Source: a phage. Taken from it: DNA of 44,742 nucleotides. The notes under the pieces are model-generated. The model was not told the DNA's origin. It did not search any database and saw only the letters and a program-made list of their open reading frames with translations. The stretch is from the sequence record PX974237.1; one strand, written 5' to 3'. Shown here in pieces: positions 345 through 37,917 of the stretch. Numbering within the stretch: position 1 is the stretch's first letter; each line of letters starts with the position of its first letter. The translations under genes were made by a program, and so were the position numbers.

Positions 345-971
345 TTAGCGGCGGCGACGTTCGCGGCGCGGTGCTTCATCTTCTTCGTCGTCTTCCAGGT
401 CATTGACGCTCGCAGCGACTTTAGAACCGCCGAACGCTTTGCCTTCGCCAACGTATTTAATCGCCAGCAGGTTAACACCGAGGACTTTGTATTTCTGGCT
501 GAACCAGATTTCAACGCTTACGTTAGCGACGCAGCCGCTGTAAACCTGTTCACCTTCAATCTGTTCACCATCTACATTGAAGTCCTGTTCTACCTGAGTC
601 TCACCTTTTTTAGAGGTTACAATCAGTGGCTGTTTCTGAGCCTTCGCTTTGAAGTATAAGCCTTCCGGGAAGTCTTCAAACGGATTGTCGCGCTCGGCAA
701 TATCTTTAATCGCGCATTTGTCCATGTGCTTACCTTCGCCGTAGTTGGACTTCATCCATTTCTCGGCGGCGGCCGCACCTAACGCTTCTTCAACCACAGC
801 GTAAACAGTGTCGTATAGCGCATCGATTTGAGCATGGTCAGACGGCAGGATAATAGTCGCGCTGTACTGGCCTTTAGTGATTGAGCCATCATCGTTTTCA
901 CGGTCTTTTTCACGTTCAAATACGTTAACCCAAGCAGTGTTTACTTTACGCAGATTCAGTTTAATACCCAT
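345..971 (-). CDS. Single-stranded DNA-binding protein, T7 gp2.5-like (DUF2815-like)
   Basis: 208 aa; MGIKLNLRKVNTAWVNVFE N-terminus and acidic C-terminal tail DLEDDEEDE typical of gp2.5-type SSBs; adjacent to DUF2800-like nuclease and polymerase. Confidence 0.45.
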   Translation of the reverse strand: MGIKLNLRKVNTAWVNVFEREKDRENDDGSITKGQYSATIILPSDHAQIDALYDTVYAVVEEALGAAAAEKWMKSNYGEGKHMDKCAIKDIAERDNPFEDFPEGLYFKAKAQKQPLIVTSKKGETQVEQDFNVDGEQIEGEQVYSGCVANVSVEIWFSQKYKVLGVNLLAIKYVGEGKAFGGSKVAASVNDLEDDEEDEAPRRERRRR

Positions 972-1030
972 CTTAATTTCTCGCTTTTAAGTTTCGTTTA
1001 CTCCGGGAAGCTGCCCGGTCAGTGATTAGA

Positions 1031-1059
1031 ACTATAATAGCTAACTATTCAGGTGTCAA
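1031..1059 (-). promoter_or_regulatory. Sigma70-like promoter (TTGACA-17-TATAGT) of the replication-module family
   Basis: Minus-strand TTGACA (1059-1054), 17-bp spacer, TATAGT (1036-1031); spacer nearly identical to promoters at 3855-3883 and 42233-42261. Confidence 0.5.
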
Positions 1060-1248
1060 ATAAAATTTCGCAATACGGACTATGTTCTCGAAATCATTCA
1101 TATCAACGGGTTCGAATTCATCCTCCACATGGTTGTATCGCACCATCGTGCCGTTCAGGAACGTAAACGATTCCGAATGGATATAACCGCCCCAGCGCCA
1201 TATCATCACAAAATCTTTATCTGTGGGCATTTCATTTACTTGAATCAT
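1045..1248 (-). CDS. Hypothetical protein (67 aa)
   Basis: ORF in operon context, stop-start overlap with upstream gene. Confidence 0.4.
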   Translation of the reverse strand: MIQVNEMPTDKDFVMIWRWGGYIHSESFTFLNGTMVRYNHVEDEFEPVDMNDFENIVRIAKFYLTPE

Positions 1249-3854: not shown

Positions 3855-3883
3855 ACTATAATAGCGAACTATTCACATGTCAA
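3855..3883 (-). promoter_or_regulatory. Sigma70-like promoter (TTGACA-17-TATAGT), replication-module family
   Basis: Minus-strand TTGACA (3883-3878), 17-bp spacer, TATAGT (3860-3855); about 30 nt upstream of the HNH start. Confidence 0.5.
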
Positions 3884-3887
3884 TGGG

Positions 3888-3916
3888 CTTTTCTAAAATA
3901 ATTAATATGGTACTAT
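3888..3916 (+). promoter_or_regulatory. Candidate promoter for the XRE-type HTH gene (-10 TACTAT, weak -35)
   Basis: TACTAT at 3911-3916 followed by the conserved TCAC motif seen downstream of the early promoters; -35 is poor. Confidence 0.35.
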
Positions 3917-3947: not shown

Positions 3948-4163
3948 ATGCAACCATCTGAACTAGGCACCCGTGTAGAACAACGCCGTAAAGAACTCGG
4001 CATCTCCCAGCGCCGTTTGGCGGCCCTGACCGGCGTTTCCCAGGGCGCGATTAACCAACTGGCACTTGGAGTAACTCAGGACGTCCGCCCGGCAACGCTG
4101 TTCAAACTGGCGGAAGTTCTGGAAGTAGACGCCAAGTGGCTGGCGTTCGGTGAAGGGGCTTAA
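3948..4163 (+). CDS. XRE-family helix-turn-helix transcriptional regulator
   Basis: 71 aa; GISQRRLAALTGVSQGAINQLALG HTH motif; RBS AAGGAG upstream. Confidence 0.75.
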   Translation: MQPSELGTRVEQRRKELGISQRRLAALTGVSQGAINQLALGVTQDVRPATLFKLAEVLEVDAKWLAFGEGA

Positions 4164-7566: not shown

Positions 7567-7785
7567 ATGAACAAAGCGACCGCAAGCGTAGTTTCCGCAA
7601 TCAAACAAGTTTACGGCATCGATATTTCAGAGCGCGTAATTATCGGGAACAAGCGCAACTTCTTTACGTTAGACACCGACGGAATGGATGAAAATGATTT
7701 TGTTAACGTACAACGTTTCGCTATCGGTAAGGGGCTTCGTAATGAGCCTGCGGGTTACAAGAAATTCGCTATCTACTTTAAATAA
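7567..7785 (+). CDS. Hypothetical early protein (72 aa)
   Basis: First ORF after the early promoter; RBS AAGGAA upstream. Confidence 0.55.
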   Translation: MNKATASVVSAIKQVYGIDISERVIIGNKRNFFTLDTDGMDENDFVNVQRFAIGKGLRNEPAGYKKFAIYFK

Positions 7786-16144: not shown

Positions 16145-16170
16145 AGGCCCCGCTAGGGGCCTTAGTTTTA
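16145..16170. terminator. Bidirectional hairpin terminator between portal (+) and KilA-N gene (-)
   Basis: aggcccc-gcta-ggggcct flanked by T-rich sequence on both strands. Confidence 0.5.
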
Positions 16171-16821
16171 ACGTATATTAGCCGCACATTTACGCACAAC
16201 CCGAGGTATCGCCTCTTTCAGTTCACCCCATGTATTAACGGCCTCCATGTCAAGAAGCGTCACCAGAGCTTTCTGGATGTCACTTCGCAACTGATTGGTC
16301 TTCGCATCCTGAGAGTCCCATGTATCGAAACCCGTTACGTCGCGGATATCTACGGATTCCTTTACCGCTTTAGCCACCTGTATGAAGTGCCCACTGTGGC
16401 CAATTCTTCCCTCCGTGCGCTCGATCATTCGACTAACGGCAGCGTTAAGCTCGACAAAGCTCACCGCGCCAATGTTTCGTAGTTCTACCTGCCGTTGTGT
16501 GATAAAGCGGTCGATAACGAGGAAATGGAAATAGGCGCTGTATTGCTCAGCAATATATACTGCCAGATGGAGACATGCAAAGGTGCGACCGTTTCGGCCT
16601 TTCGTCGCCCTTATGGCATTCTCGATTCCGAGTTGTTTTTCGCATTCCTCCTTGAAAATCTTGAAGCCATCCGTTGCCATGACCTGGCGAAGCTCTCTGG
16701 TCCCCATGCCGTTGTCTAAACGCCAACGGTTCATCTGGTCAACCAGCTCGTTTACGTTAATAAAGTTTTCACGGTCAAAAGTGATTTCTCCATAAGGGAA
16801 CTCTAATGTTTGCAGTTTCAT
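16168..16821 (-). CDS. KilA-N domain protein
   Basis: 217 aa; N-terminal FINVNELV...GTRELR...RTFACLHLAVYIAEQYSAYFHFLV fits the KilA-N/APSES pattern; AGGAGAAA RBS. Confidence 0.6.
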   Translation of the reverse strand: MKLQTLEFPYGEITFDRENFINVNELVDQMNRWRLDNGMGTRELRQVMATDGFKIFKEECEKQLGIENAIRATKGRNGRTFACLHLAVYIAEQYSAYFHFLVIDRFITQRQVELRNIGAVSFVELNAAVSRMIERTEGRIGHSGHFIQVAKAVKESVDIRDVTGFDTWDSQDAKTNQLRSDIQKALVTLLDMEAVNTWGELKEAIPRVVRKCAANIR

Positions 16822-16963: not shown

Positions 16964-18007
16964 ATGAGCTTACTGACATCACTAATCAGCCACCAGATTT
17001 GGCTGCAACGCACCGCATCTGGTGAAGTGAAAGACTTAGCACCGTTCATTCAGGAGATGCGGGACGAAATAAAACGGCAGGTGCTGTTATTCGGTGACGA
17101 CGGTCGCAGCACTGCGCGACTGAATAAACTGTTACGCGACCTGGAAGAAGCACTAACCGGTATTACGGGCGGCTGGCAGACAAAGCTGACAGAAGACCTT
17201 AAGGAACTGGCGGCGTATGAGGCTGAGTGGAACGTAAAGACACTGACCGCCAACGTAGACGCGGAATTTGTTACGCCTACCGCTGAGCAGGTATGGGCCG
17301 CTGCCGAGTTTCAACCATTATCATTGAGCGACAAGCCCGTTGATTTCACCAAGCTGATGTCTGGATGGGGTGAAACGGAAGTAGCACGTCTTGTAACTGG
17401 AGTTAAGATGGGCTTTGTGCAAGGTCAAACCACACGGCAGATTGTTAAGAATGTTGTTGGCGCTGGTGGACTAGCCGACATCTCAGAACGTAACGCGACT
17501 ACGGTAATCCGCACCGCGCTGTCCCACGTATCCAACGAGGCCCGTAACGAGACGTACCGCCAGAACGACGACATCATCGAGAAATATGAGTGGGTGTCAA
17601 CTTTGGACAGCCGTACCAGCACGATTTGCAGGGCCAGAGACGGAATGACGTGGGAAATCGGTAAAGGTCCGATGCCACCAGCCCATCCTAATTGCCGGTC
17701 GTGCACGGCTCCGGTAATCAGTTCCGAGTTCGACTTCCTCGATAAAGGCGCAAAACGCGCGGCTAAAGGCGCGGAAGGTGGCACTCAGGTAAGCGCAGAC
17801 ACCACTTACTACGAGTTCCTTAAACAACAACCGGCGTGGTTTCAGGACCAGGCGCTCGGCCCGGTGCGAGGTAAGATTTTCCGTAACAGCGGTATATCGC
17901 CGGAAGAGTTTCGCGTAATATCTGTAGATGGTTTCGGGAATCCGCTCACGCTTAAGCAGATGGCGGAACTCGATAAACGTGTTGCTGATTATCTGAAAGG
18001 GGAATAA
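16964..18007 (+). CDS. Head morphogenesis protein (Mu F / SPP1 gp7-like minor head protein)
   Basis: 347 aa; WVSTLDSRTSTICRARDGMTWEIGKGPMPPAHPNCRSC segment typical of the Mu F family; located after portal. Confidence 0.6.
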   Translation: MSLLTSLISHQIWLQRTASGEVKDLAPFIQEMRDEIKRQVLLFGDDGRSTARLNKLLRDLEEALTGITGGWQTKLTEDLKELAAYEAEWNVKTLTANVDAEFVTPTAEQVWAAAEFQPLSLSDKPVDFTKLMSGWGETEVARLVTGVKMGFVQGQTTRQIVKNVVGAGGLADISERNATTVIRTALSHVSNEARNETYRQNDDIIEKYEWVSTLDSRTSTICRARDGMTWEIGKGPMPPAHPNCRSCTAPVISSEFDFLDKGAKRAAKGAEGGTQVSADTTYYEFLKQQPAWFQDQALGPVRGKIFRNSGISPEEFRVISVDGFGNPLTLKQMAELDKRVADYLKGE

Positions 18008-18468
18008 TGATGGGCTTTTTCAAAGTAACTGACGTACCGTCTCGTCGCGTAGTCCAGTACGCCCGCGTGTCTGGCTCTGGCGAGAACGTGGTATTTATTG
18101 GGGACGAAAGTGTACTCGGTACACCGGTAGATGATATGCCGTTTGCAGATAAAACCGGTATTGCGTTGCCCGCCGCCGGTATGCTTTATGAAATTCCGTA
18201 TCTGGCGGACGCTGGCGACGTGTATTTCTCTGCGCAACCGCAGGACGCTGAACTGGCGGGCGGCAGCGCAACCATCACTGTCGAGGTTAAGGCAGGCAAA
18301 GCGCCGTATTCTCTGACCTGGTACAAAGACGGTAAGGAAGTGGTGAATGCGCCTGAGGAGGCTCTGTCTCTGACGGTTAATGCGGTCGGCGAATACTTCG
18401 TTAAAGTTACTGATGCCGATGGGGTAGAGGCCGTCAGTAAAGCGGCGAAGGTTACTAAGCCGGAATGA
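18007..18468 (+). CDS. Ig-like domain structural protein
   Basis: 153 aa; C-terminal ATITVEVKAGKAPYSLTWYKDGKEV...YFVKVTDADG resembles a bacterial Ig-like fold. Confidence 0.45.
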   Translation: MMGFFKVTDVPSRRVVQYARVSGSGENVVFIGDESVLGTPVDDMPFADKTGIALPAAGMLYEIPYLADAGDVYFSAQPQDAELAGGSATITVEVKAGKAPYSLTWYKDGKEVVNAPEEALSLTVNAVGEYFVKVTDADGVEAVSKAAKVTKPE

Positions 18469-18493
18469 TAAAAAGCCGGAATGATAAAAAGCC
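18462..18493. repeat. Tandem 16-bp direct repeat (gccggaatgataaaaa x2) across a stop codon
   Basis: Exact duplication seen at 18462-18477 and 18478-18493. Confidence 0.9.
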
Positions 18494-18516
18494 CCGCTAT
18501 GGGGCTTTATTTTTAT
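18486..18516. terminator. Bidirectional rho-independent terminator
   Basis: agcccc-gctat-ggggct with T runs on both sides. Confidence 0.7.
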
Positions 18517-18580
18517 ATGAACATCGCGGTGATAGCCGCAGCAGATACCCACAAAACAAAATAAAACATCACACTATTTG

Positions 18581-18925
18581 TCATTTGCATTTCTCGTCGT
18601 ATGTTTGTTGTAACTGCGACAGACGATTACCGGCTGTCATCTCGTCCATAGAAGGCCCGGCGCCCGTGTCCATAAAGAACAGCGGAACAATCAGGAATGC
18701 GCCTGTAACACCGAGTACAACGTTAGTACCTATTTGCTTATTAACACGGTGCGTAGCGTTGGCTTGAGCTTGTTTTGTCGTGGCGATTCTCGATAGTAAC
18801 TGATTACATGTTGCCGTTGTATCCCCTGCCTGATAAACCTGTAAAGCCGGGTCTGGCAACGACCTTACGCAACCACTCAAACAAACGGCTACAACACCTG
18901 CTACTGCTAATTTAATATATTTCAT
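18581..18925 (-). CDS. Lipoprotein (signal peptide plus lipobox LSGC), possible superinfection-exclusion or envelope moron
   Basis: 114 aa; MKYIKLAVAGVVAVCLSGC signal and lipobox; second hydrophobic segment VVLGVTGAFLIVPLFF. Confidence 0.6.
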   Translation of the reverse strand: MKYIKLAVAGVVAVCLSGCVRSLPDPALQVYQAGDTTATCNQLLSRIATTKQAQANATHRVNKQIGTNVVLGVTGAFLIVPLFFMDTGAGPSMDEMTAGNRLSQLQQTYDEKCK

Positions 18926-19023
18926 AGTTCACCATTACCCGTGTCAATGTCACCAATACCGCTACAAGCCCAAAGAAACATCACCGCATCAACTGCAATT
19001 ACTACTGAAATAACGACTAACAT
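18922..19023 (-). CDS. Small single-pass membrane peptide (33 aa), coupled to the lipoprotein
   Basis: ATG with GGGGAGG RBS 5 nt upstream; MLVVISVVIAVDAVMFLWACSG...; stop overlaps lipoprotein ATG. Confidence 0.35.
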   Translation of the reverse strand: MLVVISVVIAVDAVMFLWACSGIGDIDTGNGEL

Positions 19024-19050
19024 GACGGCCTCCCCGGTTCGATAGAATGA

Positions 19051-19079
19051 ATAGTACCCTATTATATTGGGGTGCGCAA
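19051..19079 (-). promoter_or_regulatory. Early-family promoter (TTGCGC-17-TACTAT) driving the membrane peptide and lipoprotein
   Basis: Minus-strand -35 at 19079-19074, -10 at 19056-19051; spacer accccaatataataggg nearly identical to promoter at 7504-7532. Confidence 0.55.
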
Positions 19080-19145
19080 ACTATTTGTTTATGTATTCCG
19101 GTTATTCCACTCAATTGTAAATGTTGGAATAAACTATTCGAATAG

Positions 19146-19174
19146 TTGACTTTTCACCAAAAATGTGCTAAGCT
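19146..19174 (+). promoter_or_regulatory. Candidate promoter (TTGACT-17-TAAGCT with TG extended -10)
   Basis: TTGACT 19146-19151; TGcTAAGCT 19166-19174. Confidence 0.35.
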
Positions 19175-19354
19175 CCACCTGAGCTTGTGAAGTATGAACA
19201 AGCGACCGCGGCGCGGGCAGGTAACGGAGCGGGACGTAAGTCCTGAGTGTAGTTACGCTGACGCGTTCGGAAGGGCCATACTCTATTGCTTGTGTAAAAA
19301 GTAACTGGTTTACTGAGATTACGCCGTTTCTATGTTTAAATGATAAGGACTAGC

Positions 19355-19381
19355 GCCCCGCTTTAAGGCGGGGCTTTACTT
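19355..19381 (+). terminator. GC-rich hairpin with weak T tract just upstream of the spanin RBS (terminator or attenuator)
   Basis: gccccgc-tttaag-gcggggc followed by tttactt. Confidence 0.35.
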
Positions 19382-19398
19382 ATCGAGAAAGGAGAAAC

Positions 19399-19785
19399 AT
19401 GAATCTTAAAGCAACCGTCGTAGCAGGAGCATGTTTCATCATCCTGGCTTACACACACGGCATTTATCAGTACCGCAGCGGCTGGAGCGAAGGCCGGGCG
19501 AATCTCGTTTCGCAGCAACAGCAGAAAGCGCAGGCCGAGTTAGCGAAGAAAACACAACGGCAGCAGCAGGACGAATCAAAGGCCGCCGCCGCCGACAACG
19601 AAGGCAAGACGAAATCAGAGGTGATTACCCGTGAAGTCGTTAAATACATTAAAACGCCAGGTCGCAGCGTGTGCACTTTCGACGATGCTCGCGTCCTGCT
19701 CAAGTCCCACGCCGTCGCAAACGCTAATTCCATTACCGGATACGACGATGATGCAGCCTCCGTGCAAACTGGCAGCTCCAAGTAG
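19399..19785 (+). CDS. i-spanin (Rz-like)
   Basis: 128 aa; N-terminal transmembrane segment, Gln/Ala-rich coiled coil; contains an overlapping lipoprotein ORF in the +1 frame. Confidence 0.55.
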   Translation: MNLKATVVAGACFIILAYTHGIYQYRSGWSEGRANLVSQQQQKAQAELAKKTQRQQQDESKAAAADNEGKTKSEVITREVVKYIKTPGRSVCTFDDARVLLKSHAVANANSITGYDDDAASVQTGSSK

Positions 19786-19894
19786 CGACGCTGACGAGGA
19801 TTTAGCTATCGACGTTCAGAACGCTGAATGCGTACGGCAACTGAGACTGAAAGTGTTCATGTTGCAGGATTACGTGAGGAATATTCTGGAATAG
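19631..19894 (+). CDS. o-spanin (Rz1-like lipoprotein) overlapping the i-spanin gene
   Basis: GTG start with GAGGTGA RBS; signal peptide and lipobox LASC followed by Pro-rich segment; embedded in and extending past 19399..19785. Confidence 0.5.
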   Translation: MKSLNTLKRQVAACALSTMLASCSSPTPSQTLIPLPDTTMMQPPCKLAAPSSDADEDLAIDVQNAECVRQLRLKVFMLQDYVRNILE

Positions 19895-19976
19895 TTGCCT
19901 TGCATGTTGGAATAATTTATTCTTGACATGTAAATCCGGGTGGCCCGGGTTCCAACGTCCAGGGGACATACTGACT

Positions 19977-20678
19977 ATGAATCGTTTTTTACGTTATCCG
20001 TTCCGGGAAGAAGCTGGGGCAGAAGATAAAGCTGGTGGCGGTGACGCGCCGAAAATGTTCACCGCTGAAGAAGTTCAGGCGCTGATTGAGAAAGAAGTTG
20101 CCGGGCTTAAGGCTAATCAGGAAGCATTGTTGGCGGAGAAGAAAGAAGCCGCTCGCAAAGCAAAAGAGGCCGAAGAAGAACGGCAGCGCGCGCACCAGGA
20201 GGCGTTAAAAGCCGCTGGTAAGATGGATGAGTTCGAAAAGACGATTCGTAGCCAGTATGACCCGGTGTTAGCCGAGAAAGACGGTCGCATCTCCAGAATG
20301 GCAGAGCGTATCCTCGGCAGCGAACGTAAAGCGGTGCTAGGCTCTTTCGCGGGTGACTTTATTACCCCAGAAGCAGTGGACATTCTTGCGCCGTTCGTTA
20401 AGACTGAGTTCGAAGGCGATGATGTGGTTACTAAGTTTGTTGGTGCAGACGGTAACGTAATCACGACTGACCCGGAACAGTTCCGCAAATACCTGCGCGA
20501 ACACAAGGCGTTTTCGCATTTGATCAAAGCAAATGCAGCTTCCGGCGGCGGGGCTTCCGGTAGCAAAGGCGGCGGGGCCGCACCAGCGTTTAAAGACATG
20601 AGTGAAGCAGAGCGTTTAGCCCTGTATAAATCGAACCCTGCCGAATTTGAACGGCAACTTAAAGCCCTGAGGAAATAA
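19977..20678 (+). CDS. Scaffolding protein
   Basis: Start placed at ATG 19977; Ala/Glu/Lys-rich coiled-coil protein immediately upstream of major capsid gene. Confidence 0.55.
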   Translation: MNRFLRYPFREEAGAEDKAGGGDAPKMFTAEEVQALIEKEVAGLKANQEALLAEKKEAARKAKEAEEERQRAHQEALKAAGKMDEFEKTIRSQYDPVLAEKDGRISRMAERILGSERKAVLGSFAGDFITPEAVDILAPFVKTEFEGDDVVTKFVGADGNVITTDPEQFRKYLREHKAFSHLIKANAASGGGASGSKGGGAAPAFKDMSEAERLALYKSNPAEFERQLKALRK

Positions 20679-20680
20679 TA

Positions 20681-21730
20681 ATGGCAATTACCACTATCGG
20701 CGATATCGTAACTGGCAACATCCCGGTCCTGGCGTCTTATATGACCGAGGACCCGGTAGAAAAAACCGCGTTCTTCCAGTCTGGTATTCTCACCCCGACC
20801 CCATACGCCGCCGAGATTGCCCGCGGCCCGTCCAACGTCGCTAATATTCCTTTCTGGAAAGCGATTGATACCTCTATCGAGCCGAACTACTCGAACGACG
20901 TATACCAGGACATCGCCACCCCGCGTAACGTGCAGACCGGCGAGATGATGGCGCGCGTTGCGTACCTGAACGAAGGTTTCGGTCAGGCGGATTTGACCGT
21001 TGAACTGACCAGCCAGAACCCGCTGCAATCCGTAGCGTCACGTCTGGATAACTTCTGGCAGCGTCAGGCACAACGCCGTCTGATTGCTACCGCGCTCGGG
21101 CTGTACAATGACAACGTAGCCGCTACCGACGCATACCACGAGCAGAATGACATGGTAATCGACGTGTCTGCTACTCTGGGCTTCGATGCGGGCGCGTTCA
21201 TCGACGCTACCCAGACTATGGGCGATGCTCTGATGGGCAACGGCGGTGAAGTGCTGGGGGCTATCGCGATGCATAGCTTCGTTTATGCGCAGGCACGTAA
21301 GCAGCAGCTTATCGACTTCATCCGTGACGCGGACAACAACACCATGTTCGCCACCTACCAGGGCTACCGCGTGATTGTTGACGACAGCATGACCGTAGTC
21401 GGCACTGGCCCGACCCGTAAGTTCATCTCCATCATCTTCGGCAACGGCGCTATCGGTTACGGTGAAGGTTCTCCGTCCAACCCGCTGGAATACGAGCGCG
21501 AAGCGTCCCGCGGCAACGGCGGCGGCGTTGAAACCCTGTGGACCCGTAAGACCTGGTTGCTACATCCGTTTGGTTACAGCTTCACCAGTGCAGTAATCAC
21601 TGGCAACGGCACCGAGACTACCCCGCGCTCTGCTTCCTGGCAGGACCTGGCGAACGCCTCCAACTGGAACCGTGTGGTTGACCGCAAGCACGTACCGATT
21701 GCCTTCCTGGTAACTGGTGTCGGTGCTTAA
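20681..21730 (+). CDS. Major capsid protein
   Basis: 349 aa ORF after scaffold gene, strong RBS, followed by a strong terminator (partial attenuator typical after capsid genes). Confidence 0.7.
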   Translation: MAITTIGDIVTGNIPVLASYMTEDPVEKTAFFQSGILTPTPYAAEIARGPSNVANIPFWKAIDTSIEPNYSNDVYQDIATPRNVQTGEMMARVAYLNEGFGQADLTVELTSQNPLQSVASRLDNFWQRQAQRRLIATALGLYNDNVAATDAYHEQNDMVIDVSATLGFDAGAFIDATQTMGDALMGNGGEVLGAIAMHSFVYAQARKQQLIDFIRDADNNTMFATYQGYRVIVDDSMTVVGTGPTRKFISIIFGNGAIGYGEGSPSNPLEYEREASRGNGGGVETLWTRKTWLLHPFGYSFTSAVITGNGTETTPRSASWQDLANASNWNRVVDRKHVPIAFLVTGVGA

Positions 21731-26624: not shown

Positions 26625-26650
26625 AAGGCCCCTTTCGGGGCCTTTTTCTT
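26625..26650. terminator. Bidirectional rho-independent terminator (tail tube + / kinase -)
   Basis: aaggcccc-tttc-ggggcctt followed by TTTTCTT. Confidence 0.7.
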
Positions 26651-27203
26651 ACAAACCTAATTTTAAAGCAATGTCTATAACGTTCGATTTAACGTCACCC
26701 GGTATGATGTAGGTGTCGTAATCTTTTACACCACCAACATCGTACAGATAGCCACGGCTATCGCCGATGAACGTATAGCCGTCACGATGGAGGCGGACGA
26801 TTCGCACGTCATGCCCCGCGGCGACGATAGGGGCAACTTCACTGGCGAATCCACCGTCGGACACTACAAAAACTTCGTCGCCGTCAGGCAAGTTTTCAGC
26901 AAGATACTTACCGAAATAATCATCGCCGAATACCGGTTTAATGAATTGCTCAGAAATGGCAATCATTAACCGGCGGCGGGACAACCCATTAAGAAAACCC
27001 TCGGGTTTTTCTTTCCGCGCCCGGTCGTCGTAGCCGTCGAGAAATTCGTGGTAAGCATCCTGGCCTAACGCTGCCAAAGCAATATTGAACATTGGATTCT
27101 TGAAACTGGTAGTTCCTTTCGCAAAGCCCATTTCTACCAGCGCCATAGCAAGCGTGTCTTTCCCGCAACCCGCAGGGCCATTAAGAATAATTACCTTAGC
27201 CAT
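26649..27203 (-). CDS. P-loop nucleotide kinase (dNMP-kinase-like; possibly polynucleotide 5'-kinase)
   Basis: 184 aa; Walker A GPAGCGKDT and RRLM segment as recalled from T4 gp1 dNMP kinase. Confidence 0.6.
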   Translation of the reverse strand: MAKVIILNGPAGCGKDTLAMALVEMGFAKGTTSFKNPMFNIALAALGQDAYHEFLDGYDDRARKEKPEGFLNGLSRRRLMIAISEQFIKPVFGDDYFGKYLAENLPDGDEVFVVSDGGFASEVAPIVAAGHDVRIVRLHRDGYTFIGDSRGYLYDVGGVKDYDTYIIPGDVKSNVIDIALKLGL

Positions 27204-27691
27204 TATTTATCGCTCCCGTGTGGTTTTAAGTGTGTAGAGTTCCCGTTACAGTCGTATTCGGTAACTGCGTGTACGGTTATGCCGAGGTCACGGAAATGCT
27301 TTATTACCGCTGGAGAGTCGTCGAACGCACACAAGATTCTTTCCAGTCCGAAAGCACGCAACACCTCTTCTTTAATTACGATGTCTTTTCTGTTGTCGTG
27401 TTTGCTGCGCATGATTAGCGTGTCAAACCTAACGTTATTCTCTCGTAACCATTCGCGAGTCTCCTCCTCAGCGTCATCACTTCGCCCGGTAAGGATAATT
27501 ATAGTAAGTCCGGAATGCCACAGTACGCTACACAAATGGATATTGTCGTATATCGGAGCGTCATCTTTGCAGGCCATGTTAAATGGCTTCCACGCCCACG
27601 TTTCTCCGTAGTTATCTTTTGGTAACAGGTGTAAGCGATGGGTACCGTCAGCCAATGTCCCGTCTAAATCGAAAATTACAATATCTTTCAT
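27203..27691 (-). CDS. HAD-superfamily phosphatase resembling the 3'-phosphatase domain of polynucleotide kinase-phosphatase
   Basis: 162 aa; VIFDLDGTLA motif I, IILTGR motif II, DNRKDIVIKEEV...FDDSPAV motif III/IV, closely resembling my recollection of the T4 PseT phosphatase domain. Confidence 0.65.
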   Translation of the reverse strand: MKDIVIFDLDGTLADGTHRLHLLPKDNYGETWAWKPFNMACKDDAPIYDNIHLCSVLWHSGLTIIILTGRSDDAEEETREWLRENNVRFDTLIMRSKHDNRKDIVIKEEVLRAFGLERILCAFDDSPAVIKHFRDLGITVHAVTEYDCNGNSTHLKPHGSDK

Positions 27692-28818
27692 CCCAGCATC
27701 TCCGGTGAAATAGTTAAACGTGCGACCTCGCCATATTCGGCGCTATAAGTAATTACATTTGCACTGCGGCCCGACATCCATCCGCCGCGAGAGGCGTAGG
27801 CGTCTTTAGCCGCTAAGGTGCGGTGTTGCTCAACAATCATGTTACGGCTTTCTACAATCTTCTGGTGGTGCAGATGGCCTACGTGGGCGTAGCTGTAAAC
27901 ACTCTCGCCGAACGCTTTACGGAACTTGGCAATCATAACCGGTTCGATAGCGTCGAATCGTGCTTTATGCCCGTGATGGAAGAACAGCGTCGTTTTGCCG
28001 TGTTGCACCATCTTGTAAACATCCGGCGACGTATCAACAATCACTCGGCTGTCGTTTGAGTATAAAACCGTGAACATTTCAGCAAGCCATACGGAGCCAA
28101 CAGGGTCGTGGTTACCTTGAACGATTAAAAGTTTTACTGTGTGATGCTTAACCAGCGCCATATCAACAACACGGCGGACCATACGAATCATGTAACGTAC
28201 CAGTTTCTGATAGCGAGTATCCGCATCTAATACATGGCGCGACTCGGGGGTAACGGCATCAAGACTATCGAAGTGTGCGAAGTCCCCAAGCAGGTTAATA
28301 ACTCCTGTTCCTGCATCCGGTGCTTTCTGAAACGCCGCGTCGAACCACCGAGAGAACAGGTCTTCTGCAATCTTCATGTCCCAGTCGTCGCCGCTCTCAT
28401 CGGCCCATGCCAGCATACCGAGATGGAAATCAGATACAGTGTAAAGATTGAGTAGCTTGTCGTCACGTTTGGCGCGCGCCGCTTTAACAGGCGCAACGGG
28501 CGTAATCTCTGACTTCATGCCCTCTATTACGGCTTTCATCAATTCAACCTGACGTTCGGCGTCGGTATCAGTCTTAACCCATTGCAACTTAGTGTTGCCG
28601 AACTCGTCCACAAGTGACGACGTTCCTTTAATCTTGTAACCGTCTGGTACAAGGTGACTAACGTCGCGCCCGTGGCCTACGCCTTTCTTAGCCAGCTTCG
28701 CTTTACGGATACGAATAACGCGGTCTGAGATGCCGTATTTACGGGCGATATCTACATTCTTCATACCGGCGTTCAATTCTTCCTGCAACTGTTCGTCGGT
28801 TATTTTCTTCCGGGCCAT
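27688..28818 (-). CDS. Calcineurin-like metallophosphoesterase with N-terminal HTH domain
   Basis: 376 aa; phosphoesterase motifs DFH, GDFAHFD, GNHD, HHGH, GHLHH; N-terminal 50 aa KNVDIARKYGISDRVIRIRKAK looks like an HTH. Confidence 0.7.
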   Translation of the reverse strand: MARKKITDEQLQEELNAGMKNVDIARKYGISDRVIRIRKAKLAKKGVGHGRDVSHLVPDGYKIKGTSSLVDEFGNTKLQWVKTDTDAERQVELMKAVIEGMKSEITPVAPVKAARAKRDDKLLNLYTVSDFHLGMLAWADESGDDWDMKIAEDLFSRWFDAAFQKAPDAGTGVINLLGDFAHFDSLDAVTPESRHVLDADTRYQKLVRYMIRMVRRVVDMALVKHHTVKLLIVQGNHDPVGSVWLAEMFTVLYSNDSRVIVDTSPDVYKMVQHGKTTLFFHHGHKARFDAIEPVMIAKFRKAFGESVYSYAHVGHLHHQKIVESRNMIVEQHRTLAAKDAYASRGGWMSGRSANVITYSAEYGEVARLTISPEMLG

Positions 28819-28855
28819 GTTTATTCCTCGTGCTTAGGATTTGTCCTATACTAGC

Positions 28856-29047
28856 TCACTTCTCTTTGACATTCGAGTTGCAAGCCCAGATTAAAATAAA
28901 TACCCACGGCAGCAGAACCCATCCAAGAAACAGATTAGCCATGAATATCGCTAATTTCGCTTTATGGTCGCGCATATGCGCCACGAGAAATGGAATAAAA
29001 TAAACTAAAACGATAATGATTAAGAAGAACATAGTAATACCCGTCAT
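28856..29047 (-). CDS. Superinfection-immunity-like small membrane protein (Imm_superinfect-like)
   Basis: Start at internal ATG 29047 with AGGAG RBS; 63 aa with two TM helices; YFIPFLVAHMRDHKAKLAIFMANLFLGWVLLPWVFILIWA matches the Imm_superinfect pattern. Confidence 0.55.
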   Translation of the reverse strand: MTGITMFFLIIIVLVYFIPFLVAHMRDHKAKLAIFMANLFLGWVLLPWVFILIWACNSNVKEK

Positions 29048-29088
29048 GGTGTAGCTCCTGTTTGGGATAACATCGTTGGTGTAAGTGA

Positions 29089-29117
29089 ATAGTACACTAT
29101 TATATTGGGGTGTGCAA
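29089..29117 (-). promoter_or_regulatory. Early-family promoter (TTGCAC-17-TACTAT) driving the imm / phosphoesterase / phosphatase / kinase cassette
   Basis: Minus-strand -35 at 29117-29112, -10 at 29094-29089; spacer accccaatataatagtg nearly identical to 7504-7532 and 19051-19079. Confidence 0.55.
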
Positions 29118-34985: not shown

Positions 34986-35347
34986 ATATTAACGACTACA
35001 CGGGCATACCTTACGACTTTCGCAAACGTAATTGCTGGCATCACGTGCGCATTGTCCGCGCGGATGCCGGGTTAGAAACCCCAGCGTTCGACGTTGCAAG
35101 CCCAACGGCGATTAACGAAGCGTTTGACGAAGGGCATCGCAACACGAAGGGGCTTACAAAAATTGATAAGCCTGAAAACTTCTGTGCGGTGCTTATGGGG
35201 TATCGCCGCGGCGGTCGTATCGTGTGGCACGCTGGAGTTTACTTCGACGGGATGGTGAGTCATTGCGAGCTTGCATCCCGTCAGGTACGGCTTGACAGGC
35301 TGGTGGACCTCAGAGACACGTACACGGAGATTGAATTTTGGCGATAA
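34982..35347 (+). CDS. Tail assembly protein, NlpC/P60-like (lambda gpK-like)
   Basis: 121 aa; NCWHHV Cys-His segment and downstream His consistent with NlpC/P60 catalytic residues. Confidence 0.45.
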   Translation: MNINDYTGIPYDFRKRNCWHHVRIVRADAGLETPAFDVASPTAINEAFDEGHRNTKGLTKIDKPENFCAVLMGYRRGGRIVWHAGVYFDGMVSHCELASRQVRLDRLVDLRDTYTEIEFWR

Positions 35348-37905
35348 TCCTGCACTACACGCGAAACGCTGAAGGCGCTTTCGACCGTACAAAACACGTC
35401 GGGATGCCGATAGATTTTGTCGTTAACCATATTCCTGACGGGGTGCCTGCGCGCGTCTACCTCGGCGAGATTGGCGATGATACTGATGTTACAGACGACT
35501 TCAATGCGCTCAAAGACGAGGACGCCGTGTACCACATTATCGAGGGTGCAGGCGGTGGTATCGGCGACGCTATCGGTAGTGTATTCAGTTTCATCCTTAA
35601 GCCAATTGCCAAATTGTTCGGGCTAAACACAGCAGCTAACGCTAATTATTCCGCTACCAACAATCAGGCTACGTCGCCTAACAACAGTCTTACTGACCGC
35701 TCGAACAAGCCACGTCCTTATGAACGTTCTTATGACATCTGCGGGACAGTGCAGACTATACCCAATGACCTGATGCAGACGTATAAGGTGTTTAACGCCA
35801 CGGGGGCGCTTATTGAATATGCGTACTATGACGCCGGTCGAGGGTATCTGCATATTGAGGAAGACGGTGTAACTGAGGCAGATACCCGAATCAGCGAGAT
35901 AACTGGCTCGTCGGTGACGGTGTATTCTCCTTACACTTCGCCGAATAACACCAGCACACCACAATTGCATATCGGCGACCCTATAGACCAGAAATTGTAC
36001 GTTACATTTAAAAACGCCGATGTCGATGGCGCTGTTCTTCCCGCCCCTAATGATATCGCTATAGACGTGCAGGACTACACTGTCCAGCGGCAGGGAACAA
36101 CCGGCGTTGTAGTAGGCGATGACGCTGGTTTCGATGAGTTTTTGGCGGTCGGGGACCTGGCATACTTCGATAACGTATATGCAGATACAACCCCAGGGTC
36201 TTTGGGTAATGAGGTTAACCTGGACGGGAGGTACACGGTTCTTTCTGTTAGTGAAACGACCCTTATTGTGGACGTCAGTACAAATCAATCAATATGGAAC
36301 CAGCTAGGAACATCTGTATGGTTTATAGGTGAAGAGGGCAACCATCTTATAGGCCCGGCGGATACTTACGCGGCTTCCCTCTCTGAATGGGCGTACATCA
36401 CCCGCGGAACCGTCGACCGTGTTGTAGCCAATGTCGCCGCCAGCAACGGCATGTATAAATATAACGGCGATTATAACCGTGCCTCCGTTACGGTGGAACT
36501 GCAATACCAGATGGTGGACGAATTGAAACAGCCCGTTGGTGGCATATTCACCGTGCAAGGCACTGTTACAGGGAGAAACACCGATTACACTGGTATTACC
36601 CTATACGGAAGCTTGCCTACCGCTTCCAGATTACGCGCCCGTATGCGCCGTGTTTCCGATACTGATAAAGATTTTGAGGGTACTGTTAGCGACGAGGTTA
36701 CTTTCACTAACCTGTACGGACAGTCTCTGGACACAACACCGCACTACGGCAACCGCACTACGGTGCACTGTGCCCGTAAACAAACCCCACGTGCAGCCGA
36801 GGTGTCAGAACCGGAACTGCGCATGATTGCTACCGAGATGTGCTACAAATACTTAGGTAACTGCGTATTCGATACGGTAATGACACCGAACACTCAGGCC
36901 GTGCAGTCGCTAATCAGGCTGGCGCGTGACCCTGTGGTGGGTAATCTGGAACTGACAACGGCAAATATGGACAAGTTACTTGCCGTGCAGGAAGAAATTG
37001 AGTCGTATTTTGACAGTGAATTAGCCGGGCAGTTCTGCTACACATTCGACGACTACGACACAACCATGCAAGACATCGTTCAGACCATCGCGGAAGCCGT
37101 GTTTTGTACGGCATACCGTAAAGGTGCTGATATTATGCTGCGATTCGACCGTCCTGTTGCGGGGCCTGAGATGGTTTTCACCCACCGCAGCAAAACGACC
37201 GGTACGGAGAAATGGACGCGCACGTTCAACGATTCGACAACCTACGATAGCCTATCGTTCTCGTACATTGACCCGGATACAAACGTACAGGAGACGATTT
37301 ATATCCCGGAAGAACTCGGCGCGAACACCGAGGAGTACGAATCGAAGGGTGTACGTAACTATCAGCAAGCGTACTGGCTGGCGTGGCGTCGCTACCAGCG
37401 CAACACGTTAAGTAAAGTTGTCGTAGAGTTCGAAGCTACCGAAGAAGGCGCTCTCGCTACTCCCGGCGGCGTAATCAGTGTGGTTAAAGGCTCGCGTATC
37501 GCGCCGCAGGATGGTTATGTTGTTGCCGTCAATGGCCTTACGCTGACGCTGTCTCAGCCTGTTACGTTTACTCCTGGTGATGACCATTCCATCATTCTTA
37601 AGAAGCGCGACGGCTCTGTGCAGAGTATTTCTGTTATCAAAGGAAGCCACGACCGCGAAGTGATTATGCTCTCCGCGCCGGAGGAGGCAATCTACACGGG
37701 GAATAGTGCGCTAAAAACTGAGTTTTCATTCGGCAACGAAGCAAGGCATAATGCTCAGAAGATAGTTGTTTCTTCAATCGACCCCGGCGACGACCGCACA
37801 GTCAAGATTACGGGCTACAACTATGATGACGGATTCTATAAATACGACGGCGTCGCGCCATACGGCAGCGGTTTCTCCGACGGATTCAGCAATGGTTTTA
37901 ATTAA
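35338..37905 (+). CDS. Tail tip / central fibre protein (lambda gpJ-like host specificity protein)
   Basis: 855 aa ORF (TTG start in track) following the M/L/K-like genes. Confidence 0.5.
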   Translation: MAIILHYTRNAEGAFDRTKHVGMPIDFVVNHIPDGVPARVYLGEIGDDTDVTDDFNALKDEDAVYHIIEGAGGGIGDAIGSVFSFILKPIAKLFGLNTAANANYSATNNQATSPNNSLTDRSNKPRPYERSYDICGTVQTIPNDLMQTYKVFNATGALIEYAYYDAGRGYLHIEEDGVTEADTRISEITGSSVTVYSPYTSPNNTSTPQLHIGDPIDQKLYVTFKNADVDGAVLPAPNDIAIDVQDYTVQRQGTTGVVVGDDAGFDEFLAVGDLAYFDNVYADTTPGSLGNEVNLDGRYTVLSVSETTLIVDVSTNQSIWNQLGTSVWFIGEEGNHLIGPADTYAASLSEWAYITRGTVDRVVANVAASNGMYKYNGDYNRASVTVELQYQMVDELKQPVGGIFTVQGTVTGRNTDYTGITLYGSLPTASRLRARMRRVSDTDKDFEGTVSDEVTFTNLYGQSLDTTPHYGNRTTVHCARKQTPRAAEVSEPELRMIATEMCYKYLGNCVFDTVMTPNTQAVQSLIRLARDPVVGNLELTTANMDKLLAVQEEIESYFDSELAGQFCYTFDDYDTTMQDIVQTIAEAVFCTAYRKGADIMLRFDRPVAGPEMVFTHRSKTTGTEKWTRTFNDSTTYDSLSFSYIDPDTNVQETIYIPEELGANTEEYESKGVRNYQQAYWLAWRRYQRNTLSKVVVEFEATEEGALATPGGVISVVKGSRIAPQDGYVVAVNGLTLTLSQPVTFTPGDDHSIILKKRDGSVQSISVIKGSHDREVIMLSAPEEAIYTGNSALKTEFSFGNEARHNAQKIVVSSIDPGDDRTVKITGYNYDDGFYKYDGVAPYGSGFSDGFSNGFN

Positions 37906-37917
37906 AGAGGACTCTAT

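What the first reader, a model, noticed from the sequence alone, without database searches (positions are those of the whole stretch)
18581..19079. Early-promoter-driven membrane peptide + lipoprotein pair inserted antisense in the head gene block
Seen: a 33-aa single-pass membrane peptide and a 114-aa lipoprotein (lipobox LSGC) are translationally coupled, driven by a copy of the conserved early promoter and ended by a bidirectional terminator. They lie between head genes on the opposite strand. Inference: this is a moron, likely a superinfection-exclusion or receptor-blocking system in the style of T5 Llp or phi80 Cor, or another envelope-acting factor.
Basis: partly seen in the sequence, partly recalled or inferred. 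Interest (0 to 1): 0.55.

Follow-up and report, generated by a model that had tools for sequence, protein, structure and literature searches.

The report
Phage lipoprotein moron, likely exclusion factor
A virulent E. coli phage carries a small add-on gene cassette, switched on with its non-structural genes, that encodes a membrane-anchored lipoprotein of a large uncharacterised family; relatives sit where other mobile elements keep genes that shut the door on rivals, so it is a good untested candidate for a new exclusion protein.

Summary
The sequence features are real. The window is a K1G-like Kagunavirus. On the minus strand there is one copy of a repeated promoter/operator motif, a 33-aa hydrophobic ORF, a 114-aa lipoprotein (lipobox LSGC, ATGA overlap) and a bidirectional terminator. 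They lie between the Hoc-like head decoration gene and the Rz/Rz1 spanins.

The "pair" is not the conserved unit. A divergent relative (82% aa identity) lacks the 33-aa ORF. It keeps an overlooked third coupled ORF of 25 aa (18513..18590).

The cassette fits the moron definition: K1G has an empty slot and SETP13 carries other cargo there. Only 9 of about 50,000 deposited phages carry it.

The lipoprotein belongs to a large family (over 1,400 clusters at 50% identity) with no Pfam, NCBIfam, PADLOC or PDB match. It is not homologous to Llp, Cor, Bor or SieA.

The predicted form is a periplasmic helical hairpin. It has two invariant cysteines and an invariant hydrophobic tip.

The closest homologues are stand-alone morons in the sieA slot of P22-like prophages. 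Others sit in the lambdoid immunity region, after a tail fibre gene, or directly after traG in a conjugative element. Distant members are ordinary chromosomal genes.

Superinfection exclusion is the best guess (about 0.4) and is unproven.

The parts
19048..19079 (-). Promoter/operator: TTGCGC (-35), 17 nt, TACTAT (-10), overlapping the palindrome AATAG-N4-CTATT
   Evidence: Four full copies in the window against 0.01 expected. Seven exact palindromes against 0.02 expected. Conserved in L027 and in 7 related phages. Independently predicted as a phage promoter in OM272052. Activity and timing are not shown.
18922..19023 (-). ORF A, 33 aa, MLVVISVVIAVDAVMFLWACSGIGDIDTGNGEL: one hydrophobic stretch and an acidic tail. 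Lineage-specific upstream ORF.
   Evidence: GGAGG lies 7 nt upstream of the ATG, and the stop overlaps the lipoprotein start as ATGA. Among 7 phages there are 4 synonymous and 3 conservative codon changes. Absent from L027. No match in any family library.
18581..18925 (-). 114-aa lipoprotein: signal peptide with lipobox LSGC (Cys19), two predicted helices, invariant Cys40 and Cys113, invariant hydrophobic segment N68..D86.
   Evidence: phrog_13472, E=1e-44; family and invariant columns; AlphaFold2 model; residue after the lipid-bearing Cys is never Asp; charge asymmetry around the hydrophobic segment; 40 synonymous, 22 non-synonymous changes against L027.
18513..18590 (-). ORF C, 25 aa (23 aa from the second ATG), MQMTNSVMFYFVLWVSAAAITAMFI: a hydrophobic peptide overlapping the lipoprotein stop.
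   Evidence: Same length and frame in L027 (MQMTNSLGFYAVLWVTAAVITGMFI), with 8 synonymous and 6 non-synonymous codon changes. K-02 and phiEc4 carry W14R. Not found beside homologues outside Kagunavirus.
18488..18508 (.). Bidirectional intrinsic terminator hairpin AAAGCCCCGCTATGGGGCTTT, shared by the Hoc-like gene (plus strand) and the cassette (minus strand)
   Evidence: One search detects it on both strands. Also annotated on both strands in OM272052.
3948..4163 (+). Candidate trans-acting regulator of the promoter family: a 71-aa Cro/CI-type helix-turn-helix protein preceded by operator copies at 3860 and 3903 (inference only)
   Evidence: transcriptional repressor PHROGs, E about 1e-12. Binding to the operator has not been tested.

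Best explanation
This is a horizontally acquired accessory cassette (a moron) in a virulent Kagunavirus. It is probably transcribed by host RNA polymerase from a promoter/operator that it shares with the phage's non-structural operons. It ends at the terminator it shares with the Hoc-like gene.

Its core product is a lipoprotein. The protein is exported and lipidated at Cys19. The +2 rule predicts sorting to the periplasmic face of the outer membrane.

The mature part is predicted to be an antiparallel helical hairpin. The invariant Cys40 and Cys113 probably staple it together. At its far end it presents an invariant hydrophobic, Gly/Pro-containing tip (NxxLGVxGxFxxVPxFFMD).

Most likely function: soon after infection the tip engages a conserved envelope component (a membrane or a conserved machine). 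This makes the infected cell refractory to further DNA entry, which is superinfection exclusion at the periplasm or inner-membrane step. In that respect it would work like P22 SieA, HK97 gp15 or TP-J34 Ltp rather than by masking one receptor.

The 25-aa peptide is a Kagunavirus-specific accessory. The 33-aa ORF is a lineage-specific upstream ORF that may only provide translational coupling.

Shown: the genes, the motifs, moron status, family size and the genomic contexts of homologues. Inferred: expression timing, localisation, the disulfide, the target and any exclusion phenotype.
For: Moron anatomy and presence/absence are shown.

The promoter is shared with a helix-turn-helix regulator gene, with small genes next to the replication module, and with an exonuclease / polynucleotide kinase / dNMP kinase operon.

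Lipoprotein features:
- The lipobox is present and the residue after the lipid-bearing Cys is never Asp in 171 family members.
- Net charge is +1.3 before the hydrophobic segment and -2.7 after it, which argues against a membrane-spanning helix with a cytoplasmic C-terminus.
- Long C-terminal tails carry 0, 2 or 4 cysteines.
- Long homologues add Pro/Ala linkers followed by Cys-rich domains.
- Helices 40-73 and 93-112 are modelled with block-mean pLDDT of 65-87.
- Invariant columns are listed.

The nearest relatives (39-45% identity) are single-gene morons.
- They lie directly after the ejection-protein genes gp7/gp20/gp16 and before the immI region and tailspike in P22-like prophages of Citrobacter and Kluyvera, and in an unassigned read-assembly contig.
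- Five IMG/VR contigs show the same arrangement.
- This is the position of sieA, which only 22 of 66 P22-like phages carry (PMC10883804).

Other copies:
- between the N-like antiterminator and the CI-like repressor of Alcaligenes prophages
- next to a CI-like repressor and after a host-specificity tail fibre gene
- directly after TraH/TraG_N of a Seleniivibrio conjugative element, and beside BREX, OLD and SNF2/methylase defence genes
- on a Rep3 plasmid

From my own knowledge, the position after traG is where the F plasmid carries its exclusion genes traS and traT.
Against: - There is no functional evidence for any family member, and no paper on the family was found.
- Moron slots carry many kinds of cargo, so position is only circumstantial.
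- Distant members are stand-alone chromosomal genes among housekeeping genes. Examples include Rickettsiella, a Wolbachia endosymbiont MAG and Rhizobium plasmids of roughly 0.45-1.8 Mb. Outside one related clade there is no conserved neighbour. The ancestral role is therefore not phage exclusion.
- The hydrophobic tip is modelled at low confidence (pLDDT below 50).
- Topology and sorting are predictions only.
- Cassette presence does not follow any tail-tip or tailspike allele. This gives no sign of co-evolution with an entry apparatus.
- Kagunaviruses need surface glycans and no protein receptor is known for them (PMC11990801).
Confidence: 0.42

Rival explanations
1. General envelope-fitness lipoprotein. 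The phage and the prophages borrow a bacterial envelope lipoprotein that stabilises or remodels the envelope. Possible effects are stress tolerance, serum or detergent resistance as with lambda Bor or TraT, or keeping the infected cell intact until lysis. It would have no specific effect on incoming DNA.
For: The family is mostly chromosomal in distant taxa. It occurs as a stand-alone gene among housekeeping genes, including in reduced genomes. The hydrophobic tip is invariant across phyla. From my own knowledge, lambda bor is likewise an antisense lipoprotein moron next to Rz/Rz1.
Against: Profile comparison with Bor aligns only the signal peptide (probability 18%). There are no Pfam hits to Bor, Iss or TraT. 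A virulent phage gains little from host-fitness traits. The recurrence in exclusion-type slots of four kinds of mobile element is left unexplained.
Confidence: 0.2
2. Receptor masking in the manner of T5 Llp or phi80 Cor. The outer-membrane lipoprotein binds the periplasmic face of the phage's own protein receptor. This blocks adsorption or triggering, and also protects progeny virions from being inactivated by cell debris.
For: It is a predicted outer-membrane lipoprotein made from a promoter of non-structural type in a virulent siphophage. The precedent is T5 Llp, which binds FhuA (abstracts listed). One homologue lies directly after a host-specificity tail fibre gene.
Against: There is no homology to any annotated exclusion family. 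The gene is about 16 kb from the J-like and tailspike genes (35338..39903). Its presence is uncoupled from their alleles. The same conserved tip occurs in podophage and siphophage prophages, in a conjugative element, and in phyla with different outer-membrane proteins. No protein receptor is known for Kagunavirus.
Confidence: 0.12
3. Lysis-related accessory. The small membrane peptides and the lipoprotein, which sit next to Rz/Rz1, would modulate spanin or holin function or lysis timing. One version of this idea is a one-piece spanin-like bridge with a lipid anchor in the outer membrane and a hydrophobic segment in the inner membrane.
For: The cassette lies next to the spanin genes. The architecture, a lipobox plus a hydrophobic segment, superficially recalls unimolecular spanins (my own knowledge of T1 gp11). 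Two tiny hydrophobic peptides resemble holin or antiholin-like modulators.
Against: Most Kagunaviruses and Jerseyviruses lack the cassette and still lyse their hosts. Homologues in prophages, a conjugative element and chromosomes are nowhere near lysis genes. The hydrophobic segment is not C-terminal, and its flanking charges oppose a cytoplasmic C-terminus. The phage already has Rz/Rz1, and its holin and endolysin are about 8-9 kb away (holin/lysozyme genes of SZH-1; the matching window ORFs lie at about 9.9-11.0 kb).
Confidence: 0.08
4. Virion or structural component, as the "putative structural protein" label in phage HSE2 would suggest.
For: The only support is the HSE2 gp035 annotation and the location inside the structural gene block.
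Against: The HSE2 paper reports no SDS-PAGE or mass spectrometry; those words do not occur in its text (PMC5967307). The gene is on the opposite strand, has a lipoprotein signal peptide and is absent from most relatives.
Confidence: 0.03

Closest known systems
T5 Llp and the phi80/T1/N15 Cor lipoproteins (receptor-masking exclusion)
   Same: A small phage-encoded lipoprotein with a classical lipobox. It is made by a virulent siphophage from a promoter of non-structural type, and it is predicted to sit at the outer membrane.
   Different: No sequence relationship was found. The predicted fold is a helical hairpin with a hydrophobic tip. The gene is not next to the receptor-binding genes, and its presence does not follow their alleles. 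The family extends to prophages of other morphotypes, a conjugative element and chromosomes.
[quoted passage not shown]
   Same: The closest homologues occupy the same genomic slot, between gene 16 and the immI region/tailspike, as single genes with their own promoter and terminator in P22-like prophages (slot defined).
   Different: SieA is a multi-pass inner-membrane protein with the motif FxRYPxEAxxFNK. The protein here is a lipoprotein of 114-135 aa with one hydrophobic segment and no such motif.
Lambda Bor / Iss lipoprotein moron
   Same: An antisense, self-contained lipoprotein moron beside Rz/Rz1. The size is similar and there are conserved cysteines.
   Different: Profile comparison matches only the signal peptide. 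Bor is expressed from a prophage, whereas this phage is virulent.
TP-J34 Ltp and HK97 gp15 (envelope proteins that block DNA entry by acting on the tape measure protein or the injection step)
   Same: This is the proposed mode of action: an envelope-anchored protein that faces the periplasm and stops genome entry after adsorption (own knowledge; both are cited in the reference list of PMC10883804).
   Different: There is no homology. Ltp is a Gram-positive lipoprotein with helix-turn-helix-like repeats, and gp15 is an inner-membrane protein. No target is known for the protein here.
F-plasmid TraT / TraS exclusion genes
   Same: A Seleniivibrio homologue lies directly downstream of TraH/TraG_N. 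From my own knowledge, this is the position of traS and traT in the F plasmid. TraT is also an outer-membrane lipoprotein.
   Different: There is no Pfam TraT hit. Only one conjugative context was seen.

Membership tests
Moron (self-contained accessory transcription unit in a phage genome) | Own promoter and own terminator flanking the gene or genes | tested here: met
   Promoter/operator motif at 19048..19079 and a bidirectional terminator at 18488..18508. These are sequence predictions only.
Moron (self-contained accessory transcription unit in a phage genome) | Present or absent between otherwise conserved neighbouring genes in related phages | tested here: met
   Of 181 matching records, 11 hold the cassette. 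K1G has an empty slot and SETP13 carries a different antisense gene there.
Bacterial lipoprotein (signal peptidase II substrate) | A positively charged N-terminal region, a hydrophobic region and a lipobox [LVI][ASTVI][GAS]C within the first ~25 residues | tested here: met
   MKYIKLAVAGVVAVCLSGC. The lipobox Cys is invariant in 108 homologues. Lipidation itself was not tested.
Bacterial lipoprotein (signal peptidase II substrate) | Outer-membrane sorting: no Asp directly after the lipid-bearing Cys (the E. coli +2 rule) | tested here: met
   That residue is Val here. It is Ala, Gly or Val in 161 of 171 family members and never Asp. Actual localisation cannot be tested with these tools.
phrog_13472 (phage protein family of unknown function) | Full-length profile match | tested here: met
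   E=1.2e-44 over residues 3-114 against profile positions 1-113 of 113.
T5 Llp / Cor receptor-masking lipoproteins | Sequence or profile homology to Llp or Cor | tested here: not met
   The only PHROG hit is phrog_13472. No exclusion-annotated PHROG, Pfam, NCBIfam or PADLOC family is matched. No direct pairwise alignment with Llp or Cor was run.
T5 Llp / Cor receptor-masking lipoproteins | Gene linked to the receptor-binding or tail-fibre genes and co-varying with them | tested here: not met
   The cassette is at 18.5-19.1 kb and the J-like and tailspike genes are at 35.3-39.9 kb. The closest tail-tip and tailspike relatives (22664BS2, SHAK7858) lack the cassette, and cassette carriers have several different tailspikes.
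T5 Llp / Cor receptor-masking lipoproteins | Binds the phage's outer-membrane receptor and blocks adsorption or triggering | not testable with these tools
   Needs adsorption and binding assays.
P22 SieA | Multi-pass inner-membrane protein with the motif FxRYPxEAxxFNK | tested here: not met
   There is one hydrophobic segment and no such motif in the protein or in the family consensus.
P22 SieA | Located between gene 16 and gene 9 of P22-like prophages | tested here: met
   This holds for the homologues P0007, P0173 and P0004 and for five IMG/VR loci. It does not apply to the Kagunavirus copy.
Lambda Bor / Iss | Profile homology beyond the signal peptide | tested here: not met
   hhalign of the 108-sequence alignment against lambda Bor aligned 20 columns, all in the signal peptide, with probability 17.7%.
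Unimolecular spanin (T1 gp11 type) | N-terminal lipobox plus a C-terminal transmembrane domain in a phage that lacks Rz/Rz1 | tested here: not met
   The hydrophobic segment spans residues 68-86 of 114 and has an acidic C-terminal flank. The phage has Rz/Rz1 at 19399..19894.

The most novel reading that the evidence does not exclude
The 114-aa protein would be the first phage-isolate representative of a large, unnamed lipoprotein family (a disulfide-stapled periplasmic helical hairpin with an invariant hydrophobic tip). Mobile elements of several kinds would have recruited this family repeatedly as a general gatekeeper against incoming DNA: P22-like and lambdoid prophages, conjugative elements, plasmids and a virulent siphophage. 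Under this reading a single protein family would block both phage genome injection and conjugative entry by acting on a universally conserved envelope component.
Probability: 0.25. Interest if true: 0.8.

Novelty: new variant of a known kind. Interest (0 to 1): 0.5.

Why it matters
If the exclusion role holds, it would add a new and very widespread protein family to the short list of envelope-level exclusion factors. That family has no Pfam, PDB or defence-database entry.

It would also name the cargo that fills the sieA slot in P22-like prophages lacking sieA.

It would give a simple single-gene handle on how phage genomes cross the periplasm of Gram-negative cells.

There is a practical side. 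Kagunaviruses are used in therapy-oriented collections and in synthetic-biology work. An exclusion gene carried by only some isolates could affect how they behave in phage cocktails.

If the role does not hold, the cassette remains an ordinary moron of unknown function.

Tried and rejected
- **Curated libraries.** Pfam, NCBIfam, PADLOC and PDB sequence searches of the three ORFs and of homologues gave nothing above noise.
- **Fold search.** Foldseek of the AlphaFold2 model against PDB and BFVD gave nothing significant. The best hits (E above 1) were generic alpha-hairpins of AcrA and EmrA. The AFDB library was unavailable.
- **Bor homology.** Rejected; only the signal peptide aligns.
- **Obligate small-peptide partner.** Rejected. 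Thirteen homologous loci outside Kagunavirus are single genes with their own terminator and no coupled small ORF.
- **Conserved operon partner across the family.** Rejected. Neighbour clustering over 80 species genomes found synteny only in a Rickettsiella-related clade, and the neighbours there are housekeeping genes.
- **Virion component.** Rejected; the HSE2 label has no proteomic basis in the paper.
- **Small RNA in or beside the cassette.** No Rfam match. The fold z-score for the adjacent plus-strand transcript is only -1.8.
- **E. coli genomes.** A distant DNA search with the Citrobacter prophage copy found nothing.
- **More divergent cassettes.** A metagenome scan returned only one identical copy.
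- **Literature.** Searches found no paper on this family.
Full report
**What the window is.** The region around the finding is 95-98% identical to K1G-like siphophages of the genus Kagunavirus (Guernseyvirinae), for example SZH-1, phiSD1 and Golestan. The local plus-strand gene order is:
- terminase, portal and a Mu-F-like head morphogenesis gene (16964..18007)
- a Hoc-like decoration gene (18007..18468)
- after a gap, the Rz/Rz1 spanins (19399..19785 and 19631..19894)
- the scaffold protein (19923..20678) and the major capsid protein (20681..21730)

**Checking the observation.** On the minus strand, a 33-aa ORF (18922..19023) is preceded by GGAGG. It overlaps by ATGA the start of a 114-aa ORF (18581..18925). 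That ORF begins MKYIKLAVAGVVAVCLSGC, a textbook lipoprotein signal with lipobox LSGC.

A hairpin at 18488..18508 is detected as a terminator on both strands.

The upstream sequence TTGCGCACCCCAATATAATAGGGTACTATTCA (19048..19079) is one of four full copies of the motif TTGCRCAC-N15-TACTATTCA. Chance expectation is 0.01. It contains one of seven exact AATAG-N4-CTATT palindromes, against 0.02 expected. Read as a sigma-70 promoter it gives TTGCRC, 17 nt, TACTAT. The palindrome overlaps the spacer and the -10 element, which is the layout of an operator.

The other copies precede:
- a 71-aa Cro/CI-type helix-turn-helix gene (3948..4163)
- small genes next to the replication module (starting at 7567 and 8540)
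- an antisense operon inside the tail block that encodes a DNA repair exonuclease, a polynucleotide kinase and a dNMP kinase

"Early" is a reasonable inference from the company the promoter keeps, but it is not shown.

**Three corrections.**

First, the right-hand neighbours are not head genes. There is a conserved ~280-bp segment with its own promoter and terminator, followed by the spanins.

Second, the 33-aa ORF is not a conserved partner. In the only divergent cassette found (contig L027, lipoprotein 82% identical), the same promoter runs directly into the lipoprotein gene. That copy has a GTG start and its own strong ribosome-binding site, and the 102-nt ORF is simply missing. Within the close phages the ORF shows 4 synonymous and 3 conservative codon changes. 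It is probably translated, but it is lineage-specific.

Third, a further ORF was overlooked. It lies at 18513..18590 (minus) and encodes 25 aa, MQMTNSVMFYFVLWVSAAAITAMFI. Its two possible ATGs overlap the lipoprotein stop (ATGcaaATGA), and it ends just before the terminator. L027 keeps it with the same length and frame. It differs at 14 of 25 codons, 8 of them synonymous. That ratio is similar to the lipoprotein's (40 synonymous, 22 non-synonymous), which suggests purifying selection. One caveat is that two phages carry W14R in this ORF.

**Moron status.** Of 181 matching phage records, only 11 (9 distinct Kagunaviruses) contain the cassette. K1G has nothing in this slot and SETP13 has a different antisense gene.

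The window's closest relatives in the tail-tip and tailspike genes (22664BS2 and SHAK7858, 99-99.8% identical) lack the cassette. Cassette carriers have several different tailspikes. The cassette therefore moves independently of the host-recognition module.

**The lipoprotein family.** The protein matches only phrog_13472, a family of unknown function. It matches nothing in Pfam, NCBIfam, PADLOC or PDB sequences.

It nevertheless has homologues in 1,464 clusters at 50% identity (713 at E<=1e-10), and in more than 1,000 clusters at 90% identity. All of these are named "hypothetical" or "lipoprotein".

The following columns are invariant in 108 sequences:
- the lipobox Cys19
- D35 and C40
- N68, L71, G72, G75, P81, F84 and D86, which lie within the consensus NVALGVTGAFLIVPLFFMD
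- R101, L105 and C113

AlphaFold2 with that alignment gives two helices, residues 40-73 and 93-112, with block-mean pLDDT of 65-87. The hydrophobic segment is modelled with pLDDT below 50. Fold searches return only non-significant alpha-hairpins.

Several observations place both helices in the periplasm:
- The residue after the lipid-bearing Cys is never Asp in 171 members.
- The segment before the hydrophobic stretch is net positive (+1.3) and the segment after it is net acidic (-2.7). That is the wrong way round for a membrane-spanning helix with a cytoplasmic C-terminus.
- Long homologues continue into Pro/Ala linkers and Cys-rich domains. Long C-terminal tails carry 0, 2 or 4 cysteines.

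My reading, which is an inference, is an outer-membrane-anchored periplasmic helical hairpin. Cys40 and Cys113 would staple it, and it would present a hydrophobic Gly/Pro-rich tip.

**Where homologues live.** The closest relatives (39-45% identity) are single genes with their own promoter and terminator. They lie directly after the ejection-protein genes gp7, gp20 and gp16 and before Arc/Mnt/Ant and the tailspike. This is seen in P22-like prophages of Citrobacter and Kluyvera and in an unassigned read-assembly contig, and in five IMG/VR contigs. The same position holds sieA in P22, and only 22 of 66 P22-like phages carry sieA (PMC10883804).

Other copies were found:
- between the N-like antiterminator and the CI-like repressor of Alcaligenes prophages
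- next to a CI-like repressor, and after a host-specificity tail fibre gene
- on a Rep3 plasmid
- directly after TraH/TraG_N of a Seleniivibrio conjugative element, with BREX, OLD and helicase/methylase defence genes alongside

From my own knowledge, the F plasmid carries its exclusion genes traS and traT directly after traG.

Against this, more distant members are stand-alone genes among housekeeping genes. They occur in a Nitrosomonadales MAG, unassigned metagenome contigs (one from a sponge), Rickettsiella, a Wolbachia endosymbiont MAG, Planctomycetes and Rhizobium plasmids of roughly 0.45-1.8 Mb. Outside one related clade they have no conserved neighbour.

The family therefore looks like a bacterial envelope lipoprotein that mobile elements have picked up repeatedly.

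**Mechanism.** I favour superinfection exclusion at the DNA-entry step, with a probability of about 0.4. The lipoprotein would be made soon after infection and would alter a conserved envelope component through its invariant tip, so that later genomes cannot cross.

I rank masking of a specific receptor, as by Llp or Cor, lower. There is no homology to those proteins. The gene is not linked to or co-varying with the receptor-binding genes. The tip is the same in elements and phyla that use unrelated receptors.

A general envelope-fitness role remains a serious rival, given the chromosomal members. Homology to Bor was tested and rejected.

A lysis role is unlikely. Most relatives lack the cassette, and homologues elsewhere are not near lysis genes.

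The "structural protein" label in HSE2 has no proteomic basis in the paper; 'mass spectrometry' and 'SDS-PAGE' do not occur in its text.

**Verdict.** This is a real, well-formed moron, and its anatomy needed correcting. Its core gene belongs to a large uncharacterised lipoprotein family. The positions of that family's members in mobile elements make an exclusion function attractive and easy to test, but nothing here demonstrates it.

Noticed in passing
window 1036, 3860, 7520, 8496, 19050, 29088, 42238 (14 bp each): There are seven exact copies of the palindrome AATAG-N4-CTATT, against 0.02 expected. All lie upstream of non-structural genes. Four sit inside the full promoter motif TTGCRCAC-N15-TACTATTCA. 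This looks like one operator that controls a regulon.
   Followed up: partly
window 3948..4163 (+): A 71-aa Cro/CI-type helix-turn-helix protein is preceded by operator copies at 3860 and, imperfectly, at 3903. It is a candidate autoregulated repressor that shuts off the promoter family. That would be a lambda-Cro-like switch in a virulent phage.
   Followed up: partly
window 19132..19382 (+): A perfect 16-bp palindrome, AACTATTCGAATAGTT, abuts a strong sigma-70-like promoter (TTGACT, 17 nt, TGcTAAGCT). The ~190-nt unit ends at a terminator at 19355..19374. It contains a 36-aa ORF (19194..19304) with a weak ribosome-binding site. The unit is conserved in L027, and the flanks of the region match K1G. 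There is no Rfam or PHROG match, and the fold z-score is -1.8. It could be a small RNA, a leader for Rz/Rz1 or a tiny protein.
   Followed up: partly
window 16168..16821 (-): There is a second antisense variable slot, between the portal and head-morphogenesis genes. Here it holds a 217-aa amidase (phrog_6095, E=8e-121). Related phages carry different cargo at this position: a 'sliding clamp' gene in fBC-Eco01, a 122-aa ORF in SETP13 and a 55-aa ORF in SZH-1.
   Followed up: partly
window 26649..29117 (-): An antisense operon inside the tail gene block is driven by another copy of the same promoter. It encodes a small membrane ORF (MTGITMFFLIIIVL...), a DNA repair exonuclease, a polynucleotide kinase/phosphatase and a dNMP kinase.
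   Followed up: partly
window ~18447..18480: A 17-bp tandem duplication (AGCCGGAATGATAAAA) covers the stop codon of the Hoc-like gene. By query length, the window, phiEc4 and K-02 have it, while SZH-1, phiSD1, HSE2 and fBC-Eco01 do not.
   Followed up: no
L028 (PQ436005.1, phage K-02), locus 366..1205: The deposited annotation calls five hypothetical ORFs on the strand opposite to the cassette. One of them is a 100-aa ORF antisense to the lipoprotein gene. Homology and the lipobox show that the other strand is the coding one.
   Followed up: yes
CP088689.1 (plasmid collection), 33432..33725: A 44,086-bp record filed as an E. coli plasmid from a blood isolate carries the same lipoprotein. The match is of the same strength as for the Kagunavirus genomes. 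It is probably a Kagunavirus genome deposited as a plasmid.
   Followed up: no
P0030 (230 aa), P0037, P0040, P0055, P0011: Some family members carry two tandem copies of the hairpin module. Others add C-terminal Cys-rich domains, or a SHOCT domain, after Pro/Ala-rich linkers. These fusions could hint at the native function of the family.
   Followed up: no
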